NCBI GenBank assembly: GCA_051877575.1
Contig: JBJEJA010000052.1
Location: forward strand, 7,061-71,060
Origin: Lachnospiraceae bacterium
GTDB lineage: Bacteria > Bacillota > Clostridia > Lachnospirales > Lachnospiraceae
Length of the DNA: 64,000 bases
Direction of reading: 5' to 3'
Numbering within the stretch: position 1 is the first letter of the stretch; each line of letters begins with the position of its first letter. The notes beneath the pieces are model-generated. The model was not told the origin of the DNA. It ran no database searches and saw only the letters and a program-made list of their open reading frames with translations. Shown here one piece after another: positions 5,375 to 64,000 of this stretch. The translations under genes and the position numbers were made by a program.

Positions 5375-5402
5375 AATCATATCCTCCTTAAAGTTGTAAA
5401 AT

Positions 5403-5460
5403 CTGATAAATAATTATCAATCCATACTGCTATTCTAATACAAATGTATACAGAAAACAA
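5403..5460 (-). promoter_or_regulatory. Sigma-A-like ferredoxin promoter with a palindromic operator downstream
   Basis: Minus strand TTGTTT(5460-5455)-17 nt-TAGAAT(5437-5432); palindrome ctgataa-ataa-ttatcaa at 5403-5420. Confidence 0.5.
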
Positions 5461-5518
5461 GTAGCAAATCTTAGAAAGTTAAAGGATTTACTTTATGGCA
5501 CAGGAAGGATGATGGCTG

Positions 5519-51815: not shown

Positions 51816-51890
51816 TATAAATTGACAATCATTACTGTATAAAGGTAAAATAATGAACAAAGAAAAGTGCATAAACAGGAGGAAAATATT

Positions 51891-54800
51891 GTGCCAAAAA
51901 GAACAGATATCCATAAAGTATTAATTATCGGATCGGGACCGATCATCATAGGACAGGCCTGCGAGTTTGACTATTCGGGAACACAGGCGTGTAAAGCCCT
52001 TCGAAAACTGGGATATGAAATCGTATTGGTCAATTCCAATCCGGCTACGATCATGACGGATCCGGAAACTGCCGATGTGACATATATTGAGCCTTTGAAT
52101 GTAGAAAGACTGGAACAGATCATTGCTAAAGAACGTCCGGATGCACTGCTTCCAAATCTGGGAGGACAGTCCGGTCTGAACCTGTGTGCCGAATTGAATA
52201 AAGCCGGTATTCTGGATAAATACGGGGTCAAGGTAATCGGTGTCCAGGTGGATGCCATTGAACGCGGTGAAGACCGTATCGAATTTAAAAAGACAATGGA
52301 TAAACTGGGAATTGAAATGGCACGAAGTGAAGTAGCCTATTCCGTGGATGAGGCCCTTGCCATTGCCGACAAGCTGGGATATCCGGTTGTATTGCGTCCG
52401 GCCTATACCATGGGCGGTGCAGGCGGAGGTCTGGTATACAATAAAGAAGAACTGAAGACGGTTTGTGCCAGAGGGCTTCAGGCCAGTCTGGTAGGGCAGG
52501 TACTGGTAGAGGAATCCATTCTGGGCTGGGAGGAGCTGGAGCTGGAGGTTGTCCGCGATGCAGACAATAATATTATCACCGTTTGTTTTATCGAAAATAT
52601 CGATCCCCTCGGTGTGCATACCGGGGATTCTTTCTGCTCGGCACCGATGCTGACGATCTCCGAGGAATGTCAGAAGAGACTGCAGGAGCAGGCATATAAA
52701 ATCGTAGAATCCGTTCAGGTCATCGGCGGTACCAATGTACAATTTGCCCACGACCCGGTTTCGGACCGTATCATTGTCATCGAGATCAATCCCCGTACAT
52801 CCCGGTCTTCCGCTCTGGCATCCAAAGCAACGGGCTTTCCCATTGCGCTGGTTTCCGCAATGCTGGCCACGGGACTGACGCTTAAGGATATTCCCTGTGG
52901 GAAATACGGCACGTTGGATAAATATGTGCCGGACGGAGATTATGTGGTCATCAAATTTGCCCGTTGGGCATTTGAGAAGTTTAAGGGTGTTGAGGATAAG
53001 CTGGGAACCCAGATGCGCGCTGTAGGCGAGGTTATGAGTATCGGTAAAACTTATAAGGAGGCTTTCCAGAAAGCAATCCGTTCTCTGGAGACAGGCCGCT
53101 ATGGACTGGGACATGCTAAGAACTTTGACTCTCTGGATAAGGAAGAGCTGCTCAAAAGGCTGGCGACACCTTCCAGTGAACGTCACTTCCTGATGTATGA
53201 GGCACTCCGCAAAGGAGCTTCTGTAGAGGAAATCTTTGAATTAACCAAGGTAAAATCTTATTTTATTGAACAGATGAAAGAGCTGGTAGAGGAAGAGGAA
53301 GCACTGCTTGCCTGCAAAGGAAGTATGCCGGCCGACGATATGCTGATCACAGCAAAGAAGGATGGATTTTCCGATAAGTATTTAAGCCGGCTTCTGGAGA
53401 TACCCGAAGAGGATATCCGTAACCGCCGCATCGAGCTGGGCGTGGAGGAAGCATGGGAAGGCGTTCATGTAAGCGGAACCGAAGACAGTGCTTACTATTA
53501 TTCCACATATAATGCACCGGATAAGAACCCGGTCAATACAGAAAAACCCAAGATCATGATTTTGGGCGGCGGGCCCAACCGCATCGGACAGGGCATCGAG
53601 TTTGACTACTGCTGCGTACATGCATCTCTGGCTCTGAAGAAGCTGGGATTTGAGACAATCATTGTAAACTGTAATCCCGAGACCGTATCCACGGATTATG
53701 ATACTTCCGATAAGCTGTACTTTGAGCCTTTGACGTTGGAAGATGTACTGAGCATTTACAAGAAAGAGAAACCTTTGGGTGTGATTGCACAGTTTGGCGG
53801 ACAGACACCCTTGAATCTGGCGGCAGAGCTGGAGAAAAACGGAGTGAAGATTTTAGGAACGGCGCCGTCTGTGATCGATCTTGCCGAAGATAGGGATCTG
53901 TTCCGTGAAATGATGGAGAAGCTGGAAATTCCCATGCCGGAGTCGGGAATGGCGGTGGATGTGCAGGAAGCGATCGATATCGCCAATCAAATCGGATATC
54001 CCGTTATGGTTCGTCCTTCTTATGTACTGGGCGGACGCGGTATGGAAGTGGTTTACGATGATGAAAGCATGACCGAATACATGAAGGCGGCAGTTGGTGT
54101 AACGCCTGACCGCCCCATTCTGATCGACCGGTTCTTAAATCATGCGTTGGAATGTGAAGCAGATGCCATCAGTGACGGCACCCATGCATTTGTACCGGCT
54201 GTCATGGAGCATATCGAGCTTGCGGGCATCCATTCCGGAGACTCTGCATGTATCATTCCTTCGGTACACATTTCCGAAGAAAATGTGAGAATCATTAAGG
54301 AATATACGAGAAAGATTGCGGAAGAAATGCATGTCAAAGGTCTCATGAACATGCAGTATGCCATTGAAAACGGAAAAGTGTACGTATTGGAGGCGAATCC
54401 CAGAGCATCCCGTACCGTTCCGCTGGTATCCAAGGTATGCAACATCCGTATGGTTCCTCTGGCAACGGATATTATTACCTCCGAGATTACCGGCCGTCCT
54501 TCCCCCGTACCGGGATTAAAGGATCAGGAGATTCCTTATTACGGAGTGAAAGAAGCGGTATTTCCTTTCAATATGTTCCAGGAGGTTGATCCTGTTCTCG
54601 GACCGGAAATGCGTTCTACCGGAGAGGTATTGGGCTTATCCCGTTCCTATGGAGAAGCTTTCTACAAGGCACAGGAGGCGATTCAGTCCAAACTGCCATT
54701 GGAAGGAACCGTGTTAATTTCCGTCAATGATAAAGATAAAGATGAAGTTGTGGAAGTGGCAACAAGCCTTGCGAACGACGGTTTTCGTATCGTAGCTACC

Positions 54801-55115
54801 GGAGGTACTTATGATATTCTGTCTGCAGCGGGACTGGAAGTAACCAAAGTCAAAAAGATATATGAGGGACGGCCCAATGTGGCAGACCTGATTACAAACG
54901 GAGAAATTCAGATGGTTGTAAATTCACCCATCGGAAAAAATACCCTTCATGATGACGGTTACTTAAGAAAAGCGGCAATCAAGGCAAAAGTACCTTATAT
55001 GACAACGATTGCTGCGGCAAAAGCCACGGCGGAGGGAATACATTATATTAAGTCCAATACAAGCGGCAAATTGAAATCCCTGCAGGAACTGCATAGTGAA
55101 ATTCATGATAAATAG
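51891..55115 (+). CDS. carB: Carbamoyl-phosphate synthase large subunit
   Basis: PKRTDI...GSGPIIIGQACEFDYSG; duplicated ATP-grasp domains; MGS domain; no adjacent carA. Confidence 0.97.
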   Translation: MPKRTDIHKVLIIGSGPIIIGQACEFDYSGTQACKALRKLGYEIVLVNSNPATIMTDPETADVTYIEPLNVERLEQIIAKERPDALLPNLGGQSGLNLCAELNKAGILDKYGVKVIGVQVDAIERGEDRIEFKKTMDKLGIEMARSEVAYSVDEALAIADKLGYPVVLRPAYTMGGAGGGLVYNKEELKTVCARGLQASLVGQVLVEESILGWEELELEVVRDADNNIITVCFIENIDPLGVHTGDSFCSAPMLTISEECQKRLQEQAYKIVESVQVIGGTNVQFAHDPVSDRIIVIEINPRTSRSSALASKATGFPIALVSAMLATGLTLKDIPCGKYGTLDKYVPDGDYVVIKFARWAFEKFKGVEDKLGTQMRAVGEVMSIGKTYKEAFQKAIRSLETGRYGLGHAKNFDSLDKEELLKRLATPSSERHFLMYEALRKGASVEEIFELTKVKSYFIEQMKELVEEEEALLACKGSMPADDMLITAKKDGFSDKYLSRLLEIPEEDIRNRRIELGVEEAWEGVHVSGTEDSAYYYSTYNAPDKNPVNTEKPKIMILGGGPNRIGQGIEFDYCCVHASLALKKLGFETIIVNCNPETVSTDYDTSDKLYFEPLTLEDVLSIYKKEKPLGVIAQFGGQTPLNLAAELEKNGVKILGTAPSVIDLAEDRDLFREMMEKLEIPMPESGMAVDVQEAIDIANQIGYPVMVRPSYVLGGRGMEVVYDDESMTEYMKAAVGVTPDRPILIDRFLNHALECEADAISDGTHAFVPAVMEHIELAGIHSGDSACIIPSVHISEENVRIIKEYTRKIAEEMHVKGLMNMQYAIENGKVYVLEANPRASRTVPLVSKVCNIRMVPLATDIITSEITGRPSPVPGLKDQEIPYYGVKEAVFPFNMFQEVDPVLGPEMRSTGEVLGLSRSYGEAFYKAQEAIQSKLPLEGTVLISVNDKDKDEVVEVATSLANDGFRIVATGGTYDILSAAGLEVTKVKKIYEGRPNVADLITNGEIQMVVNSPIGKNTLHDDGYLRKAAIKAKVPYMTTIAAAKATAEGIHYIKSNTSGKLKSLQELHSEIHDK

Positions 55116-55301
55116 AAATTCATAAAAAATAGAAAAAGATGTGTTAAAAAAGGGTGGGACTGTGGATTTTTCAGCACAAATACTGAGAGAATACAGAGAA
55201 GATTTGATGTGAGGGAATCAACAGGTTCCTGCCCCAGATAATTTGGAAGTATTTCACGATAAATGGACATGAAAATACACTTTCAAATAAAAAATGGCAG
55301 G

Positions 55302-55330
55302 GTATAAAATTCCTTTGTTTACAAATACTA
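55302..55330 (+). promoter_or_regulatory. Forespore (sigF/sigG-type) promoter
   Basis: GTATA-17 nt-AATACTA upstream of the MKATG start. Confidence 0.6.
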
Positions 55331-55371
55331 CTAGCACGCAAGTAGAAAATGTAAACGGAGGAAATTTTTAT

Positions 55372-55386
55372 ATGAAAGCTACGGGT
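55372..55386 (+). pseudogene. spoVT: 5' stub (MKATG) of an interrupted AbrB/SpoVT-family gene, most likely spoVT
   Basis: GGAGG RBS plus ATG AAA GCT ACG GGT, the SpoVT N-terminus. The frame then diverges and stops at 55413. Forespore-type promoter and spoVG-pth-mfd synteny agree. Confidence 0.7.
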
Positions 55387-55678
55387 GCTCAAGTTATACT
55401 AATGTTAGGTTAGAAGAAAGCCAGTATTTAAGCGGGTTTCAGCTAATTTAGTCCTATAAAAAAATCGCATTTTTCATGTGCGAAAAGGGTTAGGACGGCG
55501 CCGGAATTAACTCAAATCGAGAGCAAAATGCATTAGTATGACACGAGCAGTCAGGGTGTTTTCAAAGGGAAGATTTTAATGACATTCTCACACGAGCTAT
55601 CTTGTTCGTATAATGGAAACTACTATTTCCTGTACACCAGTTTCGTGAAGTACAAATAACTGAATAACCATTATTTTG

Positions 55679-55742
55679 GTAGGACTAAGTTAGTTTTTCG
55701 GACTCAAAGTGTGAGTCAGGCTAATCGTAGTCCTACTTTTTT
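55679..55742 (+). terminator. Terminator-like hairpin in the leader of the parM-like gene
   Basis: gtaggacta...tagtcctac followed by T6, ~50 nt before the start codon. Confidence 0.6.
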
Positions 55743-55789
55743 ATTGATTTGCCATGGAAAACTAACTTAGATTAAGGAGGAAGCAGACG

Positions 55790-56710
55790 ATGAATAACAA
55801 AATCGAAGTAATTGGTATTGACCACGGCTGGAGTAATATTAAAACCTCTTCACAGGTATTCGTTACCGGCGTGAAGGAAATTACAACTGAACCTGCATTA
55901 TATGATGGCGTTCTTGAGTATAAAGGAAGATATTACAAGGTCGGAGGCAACAGACAGGAAGTAAAAAGCACAAAGACAGAGGATGATACATTTTATCTTT
56001 TGACTCTGGCAGCGGTTGCGAAGGAATTAAGACGAAGGGGCTTATGTGAAGCAAAGGTGCTCTTGGCGGTAGGATTGCCACTGACACGATTTGGCAGTGA
56101 GAAGTCAGACTTTATTAAGTATCTTACAGCGGAAAGGGATATCGAGTTTCTGTTTGAGAATATCAGGTATCATGTGGTAATTGAAAATGTTGCAGTATTT
56201 CCACAATGCTATGCGGCAGTTGCGGATAAGCTTCAGACTTTCAATAAGAAAACCTTGATAGTTGATATCGGGTCATGGACGATTGATATTATGCCGGTTG
56301 TAGATAAGGTTCCGGACGAATCAAAATGCGTAACCATTCCGAAGGGTCTGATAACCTGTATGAGAACCATTAATGAGCAGTGTGTAAGACAGTTGAATGG
56401 TGAACTGGATGAGTCTTTTATTCAGGATATTATGAGGTTTGGCAGATGTGAGATTGACAGAAAGTATTACGACATTGCGAAAGCAGAAATCGAAGCCTTT
56501 TGTGAGAAGGTGTATAACTCAATCAGAGAGTATGGATACAACTTATCTACAACACCCATTGTATTTGTAGGAGGCGGGGCATCAGTAATGAAGTTGTTTG
56601 GAGGACTTTCGCAGAGCAATATTACTTATATTCTGGATGTTAAGGCAAATGCCAAGGGCTATGAACAGTTAGCTATGATGGCAATTAGAAAGATGAAGAA
56701 GCTGGCATAG
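55790..56710 (+). CDS. ParM/StbA-family actin-like ATPase
   Basis: IGIDHGWSNIK, GLP, VDIGSWTID, VGGGA actin-fold motifs. Confidence 0.9.
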   Translation: MNNKIEVIGIDHGWSNIKTSSQVFVTGVKEITTEPALYDGVLEYKGRYYKVGGNRQEVKSTKTEDDTFYLLTLAAVAKELRRRGLCEAKVLLAVGLPLTRFGSEKSDFIKYLTAERDIEFLFENIRYHVVIENVAVFPQCYAAVADKLQTFNKKTLIVDIGSWTIDIMPVVDKVPDESKCVTIPKGLITCMRTINEQCVRQLNGELDESFIQDIMRFGRCEIDRKYYDIAKAEIEAFCEKVYNSIREYGYNLSTTPIVFVGGGASVMKLFGGLSQSNITYILDVKANAKGYEQLAMMAIRKMKKLA

Positions 56711-56722
56711 GAGGTGTGGCAG

Positions 56723-57160
56723 ATGGCATTAGACCATATTATTAAGCAATCATGCAGGTTCAATATTAAGAATCCCCAGCATCGCAAGGTTAATGATGTT
56801 TTGGTGAACTTAGACCCGGAGATATGTAAGTCAAAGAGCCAGTTTCTGATAAATGCGGCAGAATATTATATCGACCATTTTGGAAAAGAAGCATTTACAG
56901 AAGCAAGAAGAGATGACAGTCCTTATGTTACAAAGAAAGAACTGAAAGATATCGAGGAGAGAACTGTGGAAGCAGCAGTCACGGAAGCAAGAAACGAAGT
57001 GATTCGATTACTTGGAGGCGTGATTGCAGGATGTAGTAACCTTTCAGCTTTACCGCAGAGGGCAGTTACCGAAGAGGTTAAGCAGGAAGAGGAACCGCAG
57101 GATGATGATACGATTTCAGATTATGCATTAAGCTATTTGATGGATGGAATGGAGGAATAG
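56723..57160 (+). CDS. Putative ParR-like adaptor / DNA-binding protein
   Basis: Directly after parM; RHH-like N-terminus (SKSQFLINAAEYY); acidic tail. Confidence 0.6.
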   Translation: MALDHIIKQSCRFNIKNPQHRKVNDVLVNLDPEICKSKSQFLINAAEYYIDHFGKEAFTEARRDDSPYVTKKELKDIEERTVEAAVTEARNEVIRLLGGVIAGCSNLSALPQRAVTEEVKQEEEPQDDDTISDYALSYLMDGMEE

Positions 57161-57162
57161 GT

Positions 57163-57339
57163 ATGGCAGGAAGATTTTTAGCCGGATTAGGCAATGTATT
57201 AGCAGCAATATTGAAAGCAATCGCATGGCTGATATTAAATGCGTTGCAGTTGGTCCTAAATGTGGCAAAGGTCTTCCTCTTGCTGTTAGGACTTGTAGGC
57301 AGACTGTTTCTTGCATTTGTGAGAGCAGGAACACCATAG
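57163..57339 (+). CDS. 58-aa hydrophobic membrane peptide (absent from ORF track)
   Basis: GGAGG RBS; MAGRFLAGLGNVLAAILKAIAWLILNALQLVLNVAKVFLLLLGLVGRLFLAFVRAGTP. Confidence 0.75.
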   Translation: MAGRFLAGLGNVLAAILKAIAWLILNALQLVLNVAKVFLLLLGLVGRLFLAFVRAGTP

Positions 57340-57354
57340 GAAGGAGGCGGTAAC

Positions 57355-57432
57355 ATGAAGACTTTTGCAAATTACCGAAAGAACCGGAGATTGGTACAAT
57401 ATTTCTTCAGAATGAAGAAGTTATGTGTATAA
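57355..57432 (+). CDS. 25-aa basic peptide
   Basis: AAGGAGG RBS; MKTFANYRKNRRLVQYFFRMKKLCV. Confidence 0.45.
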   Translation: MKTFANYRKNRRLVQYFFRMKKLCV

Positions 57433-57572
57433 TGGAAGGAGAGTAGTATGCATCGAGTACGGGACAGACCCAAGATATGTGTCCCGTGTAAATAGAAATG
57501 TTCACACAGTAAGAGTGGACAGGCACGGAACACATTAGCCTATCCCTCTTACGGAAAGGGATGGGTGATATT

Positions 57573-58343
57573 ATGAAGAGATTATTTATTATTCTTTTAT
57601 CCGTAACGGTTTTGGCATTAGCTGGCTGTAATTCCACAGTTAAGGAAATGACGGAAGCAGATATCAGCTATGAAGAAACAAAAGAGACAGAGGAAAGCAA
57701 GGAGCCGGTTATTGCAGAAGGAAGTACGGTGGAAAGCTCTTCTGAAAACGAAACAGAGTTCCAAAGCAATAAGGATGAAGCTGAAAGCAGTGAAGCTCCT
57801 GTAAAGGATGATACCGAAAATCAGCCTGTTTCTGAAAACAGAGAGAATCAGACAGAACAAAGAGAAGAAACACCTGCATCCACGGAGCAAAGGGAGGAAA
57901 CGCAGCCACCGGTTCAGACACCGGAGCCAACTCCTACTCCTGAACCGACACCAGAGCCAACCCCGGAGCCGGAACATACACCGGCAGGATACAATCCGGG
58001 TACTGTGGTATCACTTGCCATTGCAAAGTGTCAGGCAGGAGGTATGATTACTACGCAGGATAACCTTGCAAATGCCTTGGCAGAGGGCAGAATTACGCAG
58101 GAAGAGTATAACGAGTATTATCCCTATGATGGTTTGGAGAGCAGCTACTACAGTGTGTTTGTGGAAACTGACTTAAATATAGCCAGTACGACTTCCGGAC
58201 AGCCATTAAGAAGTGAAGACGCTATTGCAACTTACATAGCGGATATGCTTCTTTTAGAAAGTAACCCGGTGTTCAATGTGGTATATGCGGGTGTGTACTC
58301 CAGAAATGGAACTGACTTCTATGAGTTCCGATGTCTCAGATAA
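57573..58343 (+). CDS. Lipoprotein with acidic / Pro-Glu-Pro-Thr linker
   Basis: MKRLF...lipobox LAGC; (PEPT)n linker; globular C-terminal domain. Confidence 0.85.
   Translation: MKRLFIILLSVTVLALAGCNSTVKEMTEADISYEETKETEESKEPVIAEGSTVESSSENETEFQSNKDEAESSEAPVKDDTENQPVSENRENQTEQREETPASTEQREETQPPVQTPEPTPTPEPTPEPTPEPEHTPAGYNPGTVVSLAIAKCQAGGMITTQDNLANALAEGRITQEEYNEYYPYDGLESSYYSVFVETDLNIASTTSGQPLRSEDAIATYIADMLLLESNPVFNVVYAGVYSRNGTDFYEFRCLR
57918..57983 (+). repeat. Degenerate 12-bp coding repeat (TPEP)n
   Basis: TPEPTPTPEPTPEPTPEPEHTP. Confidence 0.8.
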
Positions 58344-58421
58344 CAAATTAACAATAACAAAAATTGCAGGCCATGAAAGTGACCTGCTTTTTTTGTGCCC
58401 ATTTTTAAGGAGGAATGAAAA

Positions 58422-61400
58422 GTGAAACAAAAGCTTAGAAGATTTATGGCAGGTTTTCTTGCTGTTCTTACGATGTTCACCACATTGTTCTCTAACGGAA
58501 CAACTGCATTTGCAGCAAGTCCGAGTGCGAATATTGCCTTCTGGAATGCTTCTGTAAAGAATACCGGGGAGGTAAGTGAGTTAAAGGCAGGCTACAATCA
58601 TGGTAAGATTTTGTATTCTATGATTGATGGCAATGCAGCCTATTGTATGAATTTTGGACTGGCGGCTGATGGTGGTCAGCTTATGAACAGCTATGATAAT
58701 CCGAGCACGAGTTTATCAGCAGCACAGGAAAAACAGCTTGCATACTGTCTGTACTTTGGATATGGATGTAACTCAGCTACAGCACCAAGTAATGATCAGT
58801 GCGACCAGTATATTGCAACACAGGCAATGGTATGGGCGATTGTGGCAAACCTTTTTGGAACAGGTTCCGATGATTCGGCAGCAAGCAAGCTGTGTGCGTC
58901 TGCACCAAATCCGACAAGTTCTTACAGCTATTATACAACGCTTAAGAACAATATCAGTGCATCGTATTATGCTACAAGACCGAGTTTTGCAAGCGCAACA
59001 AAGAGTGGTGCAACAACTTATGAGTTGAAGTGGAACGAAGGCAATCAGAGATTTGAGACAACTTTAACCGATTCCAATGGCGTATTGTCAAATTTCGATA
59101 TTTCCCTCAGTGGATATTCTGTAGAGAAGAGTGGTAACAGCGTAACGATTCACACAACATCTGTGAATACTACAGCTACCACGGCAACCATGAACTCAAC
59201 AGCAGGAGTTGTGGAAACAACATCAAGCTGCGTGTTCTGGCTTACCGGAAAGTCAGGCTATCAGGAGTTTATTTCTGAGAAGCCTTCAGCAGATCCGGTG
59301 TCAGCGTATTTCAAGGTTAAGACTGAGAATATCGGTTATGGAAAGATTACCAAGCAGGACGAGGAGAGTGGTGTGAAGCTTTCCGGTGCAAAGTATGGTA
59401 TCTATACTGACAGTGCCTGCACCAATAAGGTGGACACTATTACTACCGGAAGTGATGGTACAGCTACTTCCAAGGCACTTGTGGCAGGCACTTATTATGT
59501 GAAGGAGATTCAGGCTCCGAAGGGTTATGTGCTTAGTGGAAAGGTACACACACTTACTGTTAAGGCAGGTCAGACAACTTCCTTTACTGCAACTGATAAG
59601 GAGCAGCTTGGAGCACTGACTATTTACAAGGAAGGTGAGGTACTTACCGGATGGAATGGAAGTAACTTTACTTATGAAGTAAAGAAATTGCCGGGAGCAA
59701 CATTTAAGGTGACTGCCGGTGCTGATATCTATAAGGCAGATGGTACAAAGGTTTACAGTAAGGGAGATTTGATTGCAGAAAACCTTGTAACAGGTTCTGA
59801 CGGTCTGGTTGTTCTTACAGACCTTCATCTTGGCTCTTATGTGGTAACGGAAACTAAGAGCATTGATGGATATACCATCAACACTACTCCCGTGCCAGTG
59901 AATATTGAGTACAAGGACCAGAATGTGGAAGTACAGTATGAATCAGCAACCATTCAGAATACAAGACAGAAGGCAGAGGTTTCTGTAGTAAAGAAAGACT
60001 CTGATACTGCAAATCCGTTAGATGGCGGTAAATTCACTTTATACGCCGGTAATGATATTAAAAACTATGCAGGTCAGGTTATCGTTACCAAAGGTACTGC
60101 ATTGCAGACAGTCACTACAGGTGAGGATGGTAAGGCAGCATACTCTTTGGATTTGCCGATTGCAAACAGCTACTATATTTCTGAGTCACAGGCTCCTTAT
60201 GGATATGTGAGAAACAGCAGCGATGTTTACAGCTTCAACTTCAATTACCTGTCAGAGACTACAGCCAAGGCTACTTTCAGCCATGAGTTTGTAAATGACA
60301 GAACCACTGCAAAGATTCATATCTTCAAGGTGGATAAGGAAACAGGTCTTCCCGTACCACAGGGAGATGCTACCTTAGAAGGAGCAGTTTACGGTTTGTA
60401 TGCCCGTGATGATATTATGCATCCGGACGGAGCAACCGGAGTCGTATTTAAGGCGAACGATTTGGTAGCTACCATGACAACTGATGCCAATGGCAATGCG
60501 GAGGTGAATAACCTTTATCTTGGAAATTACTATGTAAAGGAAATTACTCCACCTGAAGGCTATCTTTTGGATGAGGAAGAGCATGATGTAGTCTGCGATT
60601 ATGAAGGAGATCTTGTTGCGGAGGTATCAAGAAGCACAACTTCCAAAGAGCAGGTTATGAAGCAGCCATTCCAGTTGATTAAGGTATCTGATAATGGAGA
60701 TGATACAGAAGCTCCATTGCTTGAAAAAGCAGGCTTTACAGCTTACCTTAAGTCATCTTTATCCGTAAAAGAAGATGGCGGTTATGATTTTGACAGTGCA
60801 ACTCCTGTTGTAATTGGTGCAAATGGAGAGACACAGCTTTTCACAGATGAAAAGGGACATCTGGTAACCATTCCTATCCCTTATGGAACTTATGTGGTAA
60901 TTGAGACAGTAACTCCTCATAACATGGAGACAATCAAGCCATTTGAGGTTCATGTTACGGAGAATCATCCGACAGAACCGCAGGTCTGGAGAGTGTTTGT
61001 GGACAGAGAGTTTACAGCAAAGCTTCGTGTGATTAAGAAGGATGCAGATACCAAAATGACGGTTCTTATTCCTAACACAGAGTTTAAGATTTTCAATATG
61101 GATACCAATAAGTATGTGGAGATGATTACCACTTACCCGTCAAAGAAAGTCCATACTTCATTCTTTACTGATGCAGATGGTGATTTGATTTTGCCGGATG
61201 TATTACCTCTTGGTAATTACCGTATTGAAGAAGTGGCAGCTCCTTTTGGATATGTACTCAATGAAAACTATGTGGAAGTAAAAGTGGATACTGATACTTT
61301 CTACGAAGTGGACCCTGACACTTACGAAGCAATCATTACTATAGAGTATGAAGATGCTCCTGCTGTTGGTGAGCTTGTAATTGAGAAGAAGGGTGAGGTA

Positions 61401-63800
61401 CTGGATGCATATAAGGGCGGTTTATTTGCAGATTCCGAAGATAAGGAATTTGTCTACAGAGAAGGTTCCCTTGCCAGTGCTAAGTTTGAAATCTATGCAG
61501 CTGAGGATATTTACACAGCAGACATGCAGACAGATGAGAACGGAAACCGAAACAAGTATTATGCAGAAGGTGATCTGGTTGCAACTGTTGTAACCGGGGA
61601 GGACGGAAAAGCAAAAGTTTCAGACCTTCCTCTTGGAAAGTACAGAGTGGTAGAAGTGGAAGCTCCTTACGGTTATGTACTGAACAAAGAAGAGCAGTTT
61701 GTAACTTTCGTATATGTGGATGATAAGACACCTGTTATCAAGGAAAGTCTGACATTTGCAAATGACAGACAGAAGGTTGATTTATCCGTAGCAAAACTGG
61801 ATGGAGAGACCGGTTTGCCGGTTTCCGGTGCTGAGTTTGGCTTATATGCAGCGGAGGATATTGTAAATGTGGATGGAAAGGTAATCGTAGAGAAAGATAC
61901 TTTACTTGAGGTAGCAGTATCTGATGCAAACGGCGATATCCAGTTCATAAAGGATTATCCTCTGGGTCATTACTATGCGAAGGAAATCAAGGCACCTGCC
62001 GGCTATGTATCATGCGATGATGTGATCGAATTTGATGCAGAGTATCAGGGACAGGAAGTGAAGTATGCAACAATTATAGCAAACTTCCACAATATGCCTA
62101 CAACTTTTGAGTTTACGAAGGAAGATATTACAAGTGGTGCAGAGCTTTCCGGTGCAACACTGACTGTTCTTGATAAGGACGGGAATGTGGTTGATACCTG
62201 GACATCCAAGGCAGGGGAAGCACATGTGATTAAGAAGCTTGTAGTAGGTGAATCTTATGTGCTTCGTGAGGAATTTGCTCCTTACGGATACCTAAAGGCA
62301 TCGGATGTAACCTTTACTGTAGAGGATACGGAGGAAATCCAGAGCGTTGTTATGAAGGATGAGGTCCCTACCGGGTCAATCATCATCAACAAGGATGGAG
62401 AGTTCCTGACAGACATTAACCTTGTAAAAGGTAAGTGGTATGACTTTGTATTCGATTACTTCAAGAAATCTCTTGCAGGCGTTACCTTTGAGGTTTATGC
62501 AAGAGAGGACATTGTAAGTCCGGATGGTCTTGACACTGTATATTATGAGGCTGATGAGCTTGTGGCAACCATTGTTACAAATGACAAAGGAATTGCCATG
62601 ATTAGTGATTTGCCGCTTGGCAAGTACTACCTTGTTGAGACTGCAACTATCGAGGGATTTGTGCTTGACAGTACACCAATCGAAGCAAATCTTTCCTATA
62701 TCGACCAGAATACCGAAGTGGTATATGCAGGTATGGATGTAACCAATGAGAGACAGAAGGTGCAGATTACTGTTATCAAGAAGGATGCTGAGACGAAGAA
62801 GGCTCTTGAGGGAGCAGTATTCGGCTTATATGCAAAGGAAGACATTTTCGATGCTGATGGCAGACTGATTGTAGCAGCTGATACTTTCATTGAGAAAGCA
62901 GTAACTGGAGCTGACGGAACGGTAACCTTCATTTCAGACCTTCCTCTCGGACAGTATTATGTGAAGGAAATGGAAGCTCCTGCCGGATATGTGAAGTCTG
63001 ATGAATGCTTTGATGTGGATGCTTCTTATCAGGGTGATGATGTGGAAGTAATTGAATTTGAGGCAGAATTTGAAAACTATCCTACCAAGCTTGAAATTTC
63101 CAAGACTGATATTACCGGAGAGCATGAGCTTAAGGGAGCAAAGCTTTCCATTATTGATGCTAATGGAAATGTGGTTTACAGCTGGGAGTCCGATGGAACA
63201 GTTCATGTCATCGACAGAATTCCTGTTGGCAAGTATATCTTAAGGGAAGAGATTGCCCCTTATGGATACAGAATTGCAAATGATGTGGAGTTTGAGGTGA
63301 CTGAGACAAAGGAAATTCAGAAGGTATCCATGAAGGATGAGCTTGTGAACGGAAAGATTATCATTGATAAGACTGACGAATATACCAAGAAGGGTATTGC
63401 CGGAGTAGAGTTTGAAATCCGTGACAAAGATGGTAATGTGATTGAAAAACTTGTGACTGACAAGAACGGTCATGCGGAATCCGGAGAACTTCCGATTGGT
63501 GTATTCAAGGATGGCGAGTTCGTGGAGGATATCAAGTATTATGTGGTCGAGACTAAGGCTGCAGAAGGGTATATCCTTGATGAGACCGTGCACGAAGTGG
63601 TATTACAGTATGACGATGCAGCCCCTGAGGTTGTGACATATACACTGAATATTACCAACAAGCCTACGGAACCAAAGCTTCCACAGACCGGGGATAACTT
63701 CAATCCTTGGCTTTTTGCCGGACTTGGTCTGGCTGCAATGTTAGCAGGAGCAGGTGCTTTCTTCTGGAGAAAGAAGGAAGAGGATGAAGTAACTGAATAA
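58422..63800 (+). CDS. Sortase-anchored adhesin: thioester domain plus ~13 Cna-B/SpaA repeats and LPQTG
   Basis: Signal peptide; AYCMN and ATQAMVW motifs; repeated Y-x-V-x-E-x-x-AP-x-GY; LPQTG, TM and RKK tail. Confidence 0.9.
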   Translation: MKQKLRRFMAGFLAVLTMFTTLFSNGTTAFAASPSANIAFWNASVKNTGEVSELKAGYNHGKILYSMIDGNAAYCMNFGLAADGGQLMNSYDNPSTSLSAAQEKQLAYCLYFGYGCNSATAPSNDQCDQYIATQAMVWAIVANLFGTGSDDSAASKLCASAPNPTSSYSYYTTLKNNISASYYATRPSFASATKSGATTYELKWNEGNQRFETTLTDSNGVLSNFDISLSGYSVEKSGNSVTIHTTSVNTTATTATMNSTAGVVETTSSCVFWLTGKSGYQEFISEKPSADPVSAYFKVKTENIGYGKITKQDEESGVKLSGAKYGIYTDSACTNKVDTITTGSDGTATSKALVAGTYYVKEIQAPKGYVLSGKVHTLTVKAGQTTSFTATDKEQLGALTIYKEGEVLTGWNGSNFTYEVKKLPGATFKVTAGADIYKADGTKVYSKGDLIAENLVTGSDGLVVLTDLHLGSYVVTETKSIDGYTINTTPVPVNIEYKDQNVEVQYESATIQNTRQKAEVSVVKKDSDTANPLDGGKFTLYAGNDIKNYAGQVIVTKGTALQTVTTGEDGKAAYSLDLPIANSYYISESQAPYGYVRNSSDVYSFNFNYLSETTAKATFSHEFVNDRTTAKIHIFKVDKETGLPVPQGDATLEGAVYGLYARDDIMHPDGATGVVFKANDLVATMTTDANGNAEVNNLYLGNYYVKEITPPEGYLLDEEEHDVVCDYEGDLVAEVSRSTTSKEQVMKQPFQLIKVSDNGDDTEAPLLEKAGFTAYLKSSLSVKEDGGYDFDSATPVVIGANGETQLFTDEKGHLVTIPIPYGTYVVIETVTPHNMETIKPFEVHVTENHPTEPQVWRVFVDREFTAKLRVIKKDADTKMTVLIPNTEFKIFNMDTNKYVEMITTYPSKKVHTSFFTDADGDLILPDVLPLGNYRIEEVAAPFGYVLNENYVEVKVDTDTFYEVDPDTYEAIITIEYEDAPAVGELVIEKKGEVLDAYKGGLFADSEDKEFVYREGSLASAKFEIYAAEDIYTADMQTDENGNRNKYYAEGDLVATVVTGEDGKAKVSDLPLGKYRVVEVEAPYGYVLNKEEQFVTFVYVDDKTPVIKESLTFANDRQKVDLSVAKLDGETGLPVSGAEFGLYAAEDIVNVDGKVIVEKDTLLEVAVSDANGDIQFIKDYPLGHYYAKEIKAPAGYVSCDDVIEFDAEYQGQEVKYATIIANFHNMPTTFEFTKEDITSGAELSGATLTVLDKDGNVVDTWTSKAGEAHVIKKLVVGESYVLREEFAPYGYLKASDVTFTVEDTEEIQSVVMKDEVPTGSIIINKDGEFLTDINLVKGKWYDFVFDYFKKSLAGVTFEVYAREDIVSPDGLDTVYYEADELVATIVTNDKGIAMISDLPLGKYYLVETATIEGFVLDSTPIEANLSYIDQNTEVVYAGMDVTNERQKVQITVIKKDAETKKALEGAVFGLYAKEDIFDADGRLIVAADTFIEKAVTGADGTVTFISDLPLGQYYVKEMEAPAGYVKSDECFDVDASYQGDDVEVIEFEAEFENYPTKLEISKTDITGEHELKGAKLSIIDANGNVVYSWESDGTVHVIDRIPVGKYILREEIAPYGYRIANDVEFEVTETKEIQKVSMKDELVNGKIIIDKTDEYTKKGIAGVEFEIRDKDGNVIEKLVTDKNGHAESGELPIGVFKDGEFVEDIKYYVVETKAAEGYILDETVHEVVLQYDDAAPEVVTYTLNITNKPTEPKLPQTGDNFNPWLFAGLGLAAMLAGAGAFFWRKKEEDEVTE

Positions 63801-63810
63801 TGTATTTTCA

Positions 63811-63849
63811 AAGAGGTGTAGGCCGTAATAGCTTACACCTCTTTGTTTT
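63811..63849 (+). terminator. Terminator after the adhesin gene
   Basis: aagaggtgtaggc...gcttacacctctt followed by a T-rich tail. Confidence 0.8.
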
Positions 63850-63861
63850 GGAGGAACAGCT

Positions 63862-64000
63862 TTGATTGGAGAAAAGATAAAGGAATACCGGGACAGGCGA
63901 GGTTATTCAAGGGCGGAATTAGGAAGACTATGCGGATTTGGAAGTAATAGCGAAGCCATTATTTCAGGATTTGAGCGTGACGAAGGATTTCCGGATCTTG
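63862..64000 (+). CDS. XRE-family HTH regulator (partial, runs off the window)
   Basis: GGAGG RBS plus TTG; MIGEKIKEYRDRRGYSRAELGRLCG...IISGFERDEGFPDL. Confidence 0.8.
   Translation, partial: MIGEKIKEYRDRRGYSRAELGRLCGFGSNSEAIISGFERDEGFPDL

What the first reader, a model, noticed from the sequence alone, without database searches (positions are those of the whole stretch)
55302..55440. Conjugative-type element inserted into the forespore regulator spoVT: possible germ-line gene rearrangement
Seen: a sigF/sigG-like promoter (GTATA-17-AATACTA), a GGAGG RBS and ATG AAA GCT ACG GGT (MKATG). The sequence then reads AQVILMLG-stop instead of the expected IVRRIDDLGR, and mobile-element genes follow. 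The junction has partial dyad symmetry around GG 55383-55384 (TATA-N8-AC-GG-GT-N8-TATA), as expected for a serine-recombinase att site. Known: spoVT lies downstream of spoVG-pth-mfd in Firmicutes and is sigG-dependent. The sporulation genes I know to be restored by element excision (sigK/skin, spsM/SPbeta, spoVFB, gerE) are mother-cell genes, where the rearranged chromosome is discarded. Inference: restoring spoVT would require excision in the forespore, the inherited genome, so the element would have to persist as a circle in the spore and re-integrate. Otherwise the host is sporulation-impaired. Either case is unusual. The gene call rests on five codons plus context.
Basis: partly seen in the sequence, partly recalled or inferred. 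Interest (0 to 1): 0.85.

Follow-up and report, generated by a model that had tools for sequence, protein, structure and literature searches.

The report
Conjugative element splits spore gene spoVT
A mobile DNA element shared by many gut bacteria has inserted at the fifth codon of spoVT, a regulator that acts inside the developing spore, cutting the gene off from its promoter; carriers likely make mature spores only in cells where the element has popped out, but no sign was found that this popping-out is timed to spore formation.

Summary
Confirmed. The window holds the spoVT promoter, ribosome site and five codons; the headless remainder, the assembly's only spoVT, starts contig C34 behind the element's right end. 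Joined at a shared GG (55384-55385) they give a 181-residue SpoVT. Three public runs show the empty site in this host, one shows a sister element there, one shows the end-to-end (attP-type) junction. The element is a conjugative element (relaxase, VirD4, VirB4) with three large serine recombinases, 98-99% identical across hosts whose SpoVT proteins are 42-69% identical; 12 of 13 right ends and 6 of 6 left ends lie in spoVT (the 13th is cut short). Hosts keep sigG and spoIVA. Programmed forespore excision is unsupported: no conserved sigF/sigG-type site precedes the recombinases. The right end offers an outward promoter and an open frame but no ribosome site. Best reading: a recently spreading element using a conserved target, with spoVT likely restored only on unprogrammed excision, the circle likely being kept. 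Other recombinase lineages hit spoVT at codons 10 and 34. No paper on spoVT as a target was found; this scan noted spoVT-splitting islands before in other genomes.

The parts
51867..55115 (+). carB, host gene flanking the target
   Evidence: Pfam CPSase domains; empty-site contigs of runs X1 and X6 cover 54600-55385
55302..55330 (+). host spoVT promoter, sigF/sigG type (GTATA-17-AATACTA); in the integrated state it points into the element
   Evidence: matrix score 21.9, best in the assembly; a similar site precedes nearly all intact relatives
55357..55361 (+). ribosome-binding site of spoVT
   Evidence: sequence; anti-SD pairing -9.5 kcal/mol
55372..55385 (+). 5' fragment of spoVT (codons 1-4 and two bases of codon 5); reads on into 8 element codons and stops at 55411-55413
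55384..55385 (.). GG crossover core of attL (same GG at G000:C34:126-127 in attR)
   Evidence: 6 left junctions, 13 right junctions, empty-site and attP-type contigs break here
55386..64000 (+). left arm of the conjugative element (continues to the end of contig C52; recombinase and transfer genes fall in an assembly gap of this genome)
   Evidence: 96-98% identity to other carriers; transfer module and recombinase triplet read from those carriers
55395..55400 (+). TATACT -10 box; gains a TTGACA -35 box at 17 nt only when the element ends are joined
   Evidence: function inferred
55640..55789 (+). structured leader before the parM-like gene (long stem reaching the ribosome site)
   Evidence: fold z = -2.2, 8 of 200 shuffles as good; no Rfam match; weak
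55790..56710 (+). ParM-like actin ATPase
   Evidence: PF17989 and PF21522 over cut-off; NF010498 below cut-off
56714..57160 (+). 148-aa ORF, likely the ParR-type partner (by position only)
   Evidence: no Pfam or NCBIfam hit; inference
57561..58343 (+). 260-aa putative lipoprotein of the element
   Evidence: ORF; no Pfam hit
58422..63800 (+). 1792-aa LPXTG-anchored SpaA-repeat adhesin with thioester domain
   Evidence: PF17802, PF08341, PF00746

Best explanation
An integrative conjugative element with three large serine recombinases inserts site-specifically at the GG of codon 5 of spoVT in many Lachnospiraceae, leaving the forespore promoter, ribosome site and start codon on one side and 177 codons on the other, so an integrated copy likely silences SpoVT and likely impairs spore maturation; the gene would be restored only in cells where the element has excised, likely through its ordinary transfer or stress cycle rather than a sporulation programme. 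Shown: the split, the target specificity, the gene content, an empty site, an end-to-end junction, recent spread. Inferred: the 5' part of spoVT is targeted because it is highly conserved across hosts and not needed for growth; excision joins TTGACA and TATACT into a vegetative-type promoter that faces the partition-like genes, so the circle would be kept; a circle present when the forespore forms would ride in the spore beside an intact spoVT and re-integrate afterwards (integration being the default direction of these enzymes, from established knowledge). The spore-borne circle is thus a by-product, not a developmental switch.
For: Headless spoVT at C34 start, the only match in the assembly; in-frame 181-aa product on joining, same length as the intact gene of a same-genus genome. 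12 of 13 right ends are followed by the spoVT remainder, the 13th ends 3 nt after GG; 6 of 6 left ends follow a spoVT head with its promoter. Recombinase triplet; relaxase PF03432, MobC, VirD4 NF045973 and VirB4 NF045971 over cut-off in carrier G444. Cassette DNA 98.4-99.0% identical among 5 carriers whose SpoVT is 42-69% identical. This host is empty in runs X1, X5, X6 (3 studies) and carries a sister element in X2. End-to-end junction in run X7. No sigF/sigG-type site before recombinase 1 (best -4.0), at the right end (2.4) or before parM (-1.7); random 400-nt windows have median -0.4, 95th percentile 7.1. LexA-like, S24 repressor and UmuC-like genes ride in two carriers. Codons 1-40 of spoVT are 95% conserved against 70% for the rest in 39 relatives. 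C. difficile spoVT mutant gave no heat-resistant spores (PMC3789822, passages); B. cereus mutant is severely defective (PMC5061766, abstract).
Against: No phenotype or expression data for any carrier. B. subtilis tolerates loss of spoVT far better (PMC5061766 abstract), so the cost in Lachnospiraceae is unknown. At least three unrelated recombinase modules target spoVT, which may point to a benefit of this target beyond conservation. The middle of the element and this genome's own recombinase genes were not assembled, so a forespore-driven directionality gene could lie unseen; none is identified. An outward promoter and open frame at attR leave some rescue possible. The X7 junction has 30 letters on its short side, one under the tool's bridging rule, and cannot tell a circle from a tandem copy.
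Confidence: 0.55

Rival explanations
1. Programmed forespore excision: sigF or sigG triggers excision in the spore compartment, either through a directionality gene not yet identified or because the host spoVT promoter reads across attL into the element; spoVT is rebuilt, the circle is trapped in the spore and re-integrates on outgrowth.
For: Precise restoration is possible; host keeps sigG, a sigF-like paralogue and spoIVA; the host promoter is intact at 6 of 6 left junctions and no terminator-like site was found in 55100-55900; circle-specific promoter and partition-like genes; repeated independent targeting of spoVT (7 of 259 other genomes). A weak site (13.6) lies 405 nt before recombinase 2 in 4 of 7 copies. 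In C. difficile skin the recombinase is constitutive and only a small directionality gene is sporulation-controlled (PMC5025042, passages), so a vegetative-type recombinase promoter does not exclude regulation.
Against: The weak site is lost in 3 of 7 copies that are 98-99% alike, is absent from the other spoVT triplet tested (best 8.7), and 2 of 29 control triplet loci score as high. The one strong site (18.2) lies in cargo of one carrier, outside the stretch shared with the other copies. The genes after attL are partition and surface genes, with no recognised directionality factor. The element is recent and absent from most sampled populations of the host.
Confidence: 0.17
2. attR rescue: the element's right end supplies its own promoter and an in-frame start, so a SpoVT with an altered N-terminus is made without excision.
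For: TTGACA-18-TAAAAT (11 of 12) lies about 139 nt before the GG in 10 of 11 right ends long enough to test, and 10 of 12 in the sister element; 13 of 2000 shuffles reach 11 of 12. The frame is open for 20-28 codons in 13 of 13 ends, and a TTG four codons before the GG would give native length. Only four residues are replaced. Vegetative-type promoters can be active in the C. difficile forespore (PMC5025042, passage).
Against: No ribosome site: +0.4 to +2.2 kcal/mol in 12 ends and at best -3.7 in the sister, against -9.5 for the native start and a host median of -7.1. The ATG is present in only 6 of 12 near-identical ends. 407 of 2000 shuffles also leave 20 codons open. The TTG is part of the -35 box used in the circle. 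Similar outward promoters occur in codon-10 elements that delete ten residues, so they may serve the circle instead. In this genome the -35 box is cut off by the contig start.
Confidence: 0.15
3. Neutral parking: SpoVT is only a fine-tuner in these hosts, or they seldom sporulate, so the insertion costs little and no restoration is needed.
For: 141 of 401 family genomes had no spoVT match (many are incomplete or may be non-sporulating). B. subtilis shows no severe defect without spoVT (PMC5061766 abstract). Recombinase triplets are known to disrupt dispensable genes (PMC4701971, passages).
Against: The tail is intact and differs at few residues from the intact same-genus protein; carriers keep sigG (9 of 12 with a near full-length match) and spoIVA (5 of 5); the one clostridial mutant read here made no heat-resistant spores.
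Confidence: 0.11
4. Assembly or binning artefact: the head and tail belong to different organisms or a chimeric contig.
For: G000 is a 52-contig assembly and the element is broken between C52 and C34; G442 and G446 hold both an intact spoVT and an element end, which suggests mis-binning occurs in this data.
Against: Independent contigs join the C52 flank to the C34 flank at the GG; the same junctions recur in other genomes and metagenomes; contamination estimate 0.11%.
Confidence: 0.02

Closest known systems
Streptococcal ICEs with a triplet of serine integrases (Tn5252 superfamily incl. Tn1549 family; PMC4701971, passages read)
   Same: Three tandem large serine recombinases at one end, oriented towards the target; 2-bp repeat; integration inside a coding gene that is disrupted; relaxase, coupling protein and VirB4 present. 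The paper already suggests such elements may excise when the gene is needed and says this was never studied.
   Different: Targets listed there are mutT, traG and hsdM; here the target is a forespore regulator in Lachnospiraceae. Family assignment of the conjugation module was not tested by phylogeny.
gin element in gerE of Bacillus cereus ATCC 10987 (PMC5595907, passages read)
   Same: Non-phage element with three serine recombinases splitting a small sporulation transcription factor; precise excision restores the frame.
   Different: gerE is a mother-cell gene; gin excision is shown to be sporulation-specific and needs GirC plus GirX; girC lies apart from girAB; no conjugation module is described in the passages read. 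Here excision timing is unknown and the element is a mobile ICE.
skin (sigK) and SPbeta (spsM) intervening elements (PMC4191935, PMC5025042, passages read)
   Same: Serine-recombinase element inside a sporulation gene.
   Different: Excision there is confined to the mother cell and driven by sporulation sigma factors acting on the recombinase or a directionality factor; here the target acts in the forespore and no such control was found.
Conjugative transposons CTn1-CTn7 and Tn6103-Tn6106 of C. difficile (PMC3158075, passages read)
   Same: Circular joints and empty targets detectable by PCR; a 2-bp repeat in Tn6104; VirB4 and VirD4 here belong to the CD1110 and CD1115 families. A promoter formed at the circle joint is recalled for Tn4451/Tn5397 and was not confirmed in the passages read.
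   Different: Single recombinases and other targets; spoVT does not occur in that paper's main text.

Membership tests
Integrative conjugative element (ICE) | Site-specific recombinase and defined att ends | tested here: met
   Triplet at the right end of 98-99% identical copies; not assembled in G000 itself
Integrative conjugative element (ICE) | Relaxase, coupling protein and VirB4 | tested here: met
   In carrier G444, contiguous with the arm that matches C52 at 97-98%; VirB4 cut by a contig end
Integrative conjugative element (ICE) | Excision to a circle | tested here: inconclusive
   End-to-end junction in run X7; circle and tandem copy not separable
Integrative conjugative element (ICE) | Transfer by conjugation | not testable with these tools
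   Indirect only: near-identical copies in divergent hosts
Serine-integrase-triplet ICEs | Three tandem PF00239+PF07508 genes facing the target, 2-8 bp repeat, target gene disrupted | tested here: met
   559, 565 and 523 aa; GG repeat; ends 135 nt before attR
Sporulation gene-intervening elements (skin, SPbeta, vfbin, gin) | Interrupts a sporulation gene and precise excision restores the frame | tested here: met
   181-aa product; empty sites in public runs
Sporulation gene-intervening elements (skin, SPbeta, vfbin, gin) | Recombinase or directionality factor under a sporulation sigma factor | tested here: inconclusive
   No conserved sigF/sigG-type site; sigE/sigK sites not scanned; directionality gene unknown; middle of the element unseen
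Sporulation gene-intervening elements (skin, SPbeta, vfbin, gin) | Excision is sporulation-specific | not testable with these tools
   Needs staged cultures
Sporulation gene-intervening elements (skin, SPbeta, vfbin, gin) | Target is a mother-cell gene, rearranged chromosome discarded | tested here: not met
   Target is spoVT with a sigF/sigG-type promoter; forespore control shown in C. difficile (PMC3789822)

The most novel reading that the evidence does not exclude
spoVT is a reversible germ-line switch: several unrelated recombinase elements converge on its first 35 codons because forespore transcription cues their excision, the gene is rebuilt in the inherited chromosome, and the element travels between hosts as a partition-stabilised circle inside the spore before re-integrating. 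This would be the first developmental gene rearrangement in the spore genome and a route for ICE spread by spores.
Probability: 0.17. Interest if true: 0.85.

Novelty: new variant of a known kind. Interest (0 to 1): 0.5.

Why it matters
Described sporulation-gene elements sit in mother-cell genes; here a widespread gut element sits in a forespore regulator, and 7 of 259 other Lachnospiraceae genomes with spoVT have it split by one of at least three recombinase modules. Either a mobile element likely switches off spore maturation, and with it host-to-host transmission, in common gut bacteria, or excision occurs in the inherited genome. Both are testable with four PCR primers, since all junctions are now defined. 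The split is also easy to miss in annotation: the tail still scores over the family cut-off in several carriers, so such strains are counted as spoVT-positive.

Tried and rejected
Recombinase in the window's own genome: none found (PF07508, PF00239, DNA search); it falls in the gap between C52 and C34. Reading one complete element: the two long metagenome contigs are not held; carriers G441 and G444 are broken inside it (minimum 37.1 kb in G444). Fetches L121, L126, L127 turned out to be host DNA. Right-end 18-mer: 0 loci in viral contigs; 15 of 18 metagenome loci were unrelated matches. 3 of 12 loci of the genome scan were distant (28-29%) and 1 did not reach the end. Rfam: nothing in 55000-64000. 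I first read run X2 as an empty site; its differences match the sister element, so it is occupied. Forespore-type promoters at recombinase genes of other spoVT elements: 4.5-7.5 for two fused types, 3.3 for one triplet, 11.1 for G006 in 671 nt (99th percentile for 400 nt is 10.6): at most one weak case. Two small ORFs before the triplet have no Pfam or NCBIfam hit; one resembles resolvase N-terminal clusters at 0.90, a lead for a directionality factor only. The spo0A match in G000 covers only the C-terminal part and was not followed up. Literature: six searches naming spoVT or stage V sporulation listed no paper on spoVT as an integration site (listings only); PMC10083194 main-text passages and 8 supplementary files had no spoVT hit; the 2020 paper on regulated gene integrity candidates (recalled) is not held and its tables may bear on novelty, as may subscription papers.

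Full report
Observation. The window is G000:C52:7061-71060 of a 52-contig, 84.6% complete assembly. The family is inferred to be Lachnospiraceae, because a same-family genome (G071, the same contig coordinates as G448) is titled so. After carB (51867-55115) come GTATA-17-AATACTA (55302-55330), GGAGG (55357-55361) and ATG (55372); five codons MKATG run on into eight foreign codons and a stop. A similar promoter precedes nearly all intact spoVT genes of relatives, and a matrix built from 28 of them ranks this site first in the assembly, also recovering a small acid-soluble spore protein-like gene, named by eye.

The other half. The only spoVT match in the assembly starts at C34:123 and lacks its first codons. 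Head and tail share GG; joined there they give 181 residues, the length of the intact protein in same-genus G017. The core is 55384-55385, since 55383 varies among six left junctions. Public runs confirm the geometry: X6 and X1 run from carB through 55385 into a spoVT continuation (exact C34 sequence in X6), and X5 joins the exact head to the C34 tail. X2 has this host's tail behind a right end that matches the sister element of L108. So of 4 runs covering this host, 3 (3 studies) are empty and 1 carries another variant. X7 has a contig in which 28 letters of the right end join through GG to the left end, and a second contig that ends at that GG: an attP-type junction, 30 letters on the short side, from a circle or a tandem copy.

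The element. G000 lacks the recombinases because the assembly breaks inside the element. Copies elsewhere supply them. A right-end pattern gave 3 true ends among 18 metagenome loci, and a scan with the last recombinase gave 9 close loci of 12, 8 reaching the end. With G000 and G095 that makes 13 right ends: 12 continue into spoVT at the same GG and one stops three bases later. Six of six left ends follow a spoVT head with its promoter, scores 13.8-22.5. Three large serine recombinases (559, 565, 523 aa) end 135 nt before attR. Carrier G444 shows relaxase, MobC, VirD4 (NF045973), PrgI and VirB4 (NF045971) and at least 37.1 kb. The recombinase cassette is 98.4-99.0% identical among five carriers whose SpoVT tails are 42-69% identical: recent horizontal spread. 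The left arm in the window encodes a ParM-like ATPase, a likely partner, a putative lipoprotein and an LPXTG adhesin. Joining the ends creates TTGACA-17-TATACT facing these genes.

Does the host need the gene? G000 keeps full-length sigG, a sigF-like paralogue and spoIVA; 9 of 12 genomes tested (10 carriers and 2 same-genus genomes) have a near full-length sigG match and 5 of 5 carriers have spoIVA. Eight of ten carrier assemblies have only the headless copy; two also have an intact one, probably through binning. In C. difficile spoVT depends on sigF and sigG and its mutant gave no heat-resistant spores (PMC3789822, passages); B. cereus is severely affected and B. subtilis is not (PMC5061766, abstract). 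The cost in Lachnospiraceae is an inference.

Is excision programmed? Known intervening elements excise in the mother cell under sporulation sigma factors (PMC4191935, PMC5025042, PMC5595907, passages). The matrix found nothing before recombinase 1 (-4.0; a 9-of-12 vegetative-type site is there, at chance level), at the right end (2.4) or before parM (-1.7). A site of 13.6 inside recombinase 1 is present in 4 of 7 near-identical copies, and 2 of 29 control triplet loci do as well. A site of 18.2 is in unshared cargo. The middle of the element was not seen, no directionality factor is identified, and the host promoter itself faces the element with no terminator-like site found, so the idea is unsupported rather than excluded. 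That test came partly from an earlier unchecked note of this scan.

Is there a substitute start? An outward vegetative-type promoter (11 of 12; 13 of 2000 shuffles) lies about 139 nt before attR and the frame is open 20-28 codons in 13 of 13 ends. But no candidate start has a ribosome site, the ATG is in 6 of 12 near-identical ends, 20 open codons arise in 407 of 2000 shuffles, and similar promoters occur in elements that remove ten residues. Rescue is possible but less likely.

How common is the target? Of 401 family genomes (one per genus) 260 have spoVT; the match ranges of all were read across. Besides G000, 7 of 259 are split with element DNA alongside: codon 5 (G095, G071), codon 10/11 (G247, G427), codon 34 with the recombinase fused to the SpoVT C-terminal domain (G125, G129, G393); G294, G372 and G114 end at contig breaks and are unresolved, and G108 has both forms. 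In the genus 11 of 12 genomes with a match are intact and G006 is split by yet another element. All sites lie in codons 1-40, the best conserved part (95% against 70%), which offers a plain reason for convergence.

Comparison and verdict. It meets the tested features of an ICE with a serine-integrase triplet, a kind known to disrupt mutT, traG and hsdM (PMC4701971, passages). It works like an intervening element in that excision would restore the gene, but fails the mother-cell criterion and lacks evidence of developmental control, so it is not filed with skin or gin. Six searches found no paper on spoVT as a target (supplements of PMC10083194); one relevant paper was not held. Earlier notes of this scan describe spoVT-splitting islands in other genomes; no look-alike of this junction was indexed. 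Verdict: real, a new variant of a known kind; most likely a recently spreading ICE that silences spoVT unless it excises in its ordinary cycle (0.55), with programmed forespore excision at 0.17. Interest 0.5.

Noticed in passing
L130:460-2742 (G125), L132:5380-7728 (G393), L131:15-1292 (G129): A second class of element inserts at about codon 34 of spoVT, and its single large serine recombinase is fused in frame to the SpoVT C-terminal domain (761-783 aa; resolvase, recombinase, zinc ribbon and PF15714 all over cut-off in the two scanned). The fusion exists only in the integrated state and could affect directionality or act on SpoVT.
   Followed up: partly
L136 (G247), L137 (G427), L134:19008-19520 (G108): A third class inserts at codon 10/11 of spoVT (triplet in G247, last recombinase 29% identical to this element's; G427 cut by a contig end). 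G108 has an intact spoVT, 17 kb of defence-like cargo and then a headless second copy.
   Followed up: partly
L032 and L033 (G006, same genus): A 24-kb element splits spoVT near codon 35, with a 582-aa recombinase on the opposite strand, a restriction-modification-like cluster and a reverse-transcriptase-like ORF (named by eye). A weak forespore-type site (11.1) precedes its 93-aa ORF and recombinase.
   Followed up: partly
L133:2969-3070 and 5376-5477 (G393): Two spoVT heads (codons 1-34) 2.4 kb apart, each followed by the same element end and a parA-like start: looks like repeated insertion at one site.
   Followed up: no
L082 / L049 (G139:C21 near 4383): A related element's left end is preceded by a TTGACA-bearing right-end-like sequence, i.e. 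an end-to-end or tandem junction in another triplet family.
   Followed up: no
L001:1-125 and L103:8570-8705: The right end carries three TGACAT-like repeats over its outward promoter and an A/T inverted repeat before the core, kept in the sister element; likely regulator or recombinase binding sites.
   Followed up: no
L100:2-337; L129:161-2581: PemK/MazF-like toxin ORF just before the recombinase triplet; S24 repressor, UmuC-like polymerase and LexA-like gene in the cargo of two carriers.
   Followed up: partly
L140 and L104 (G442); L141 and L106 (G446): These two assemblies hold both an intact spoVT and an element end; in G442 the two SpoVT sequences differ widely, which suggests a mis-binned contig.
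   Followed up: partly
G000:C39:5094-6083 and C12:2527-3387: VirB4-like genes of other conjugative elements in the same genome, not matching this element's arm.
   Followed up: no
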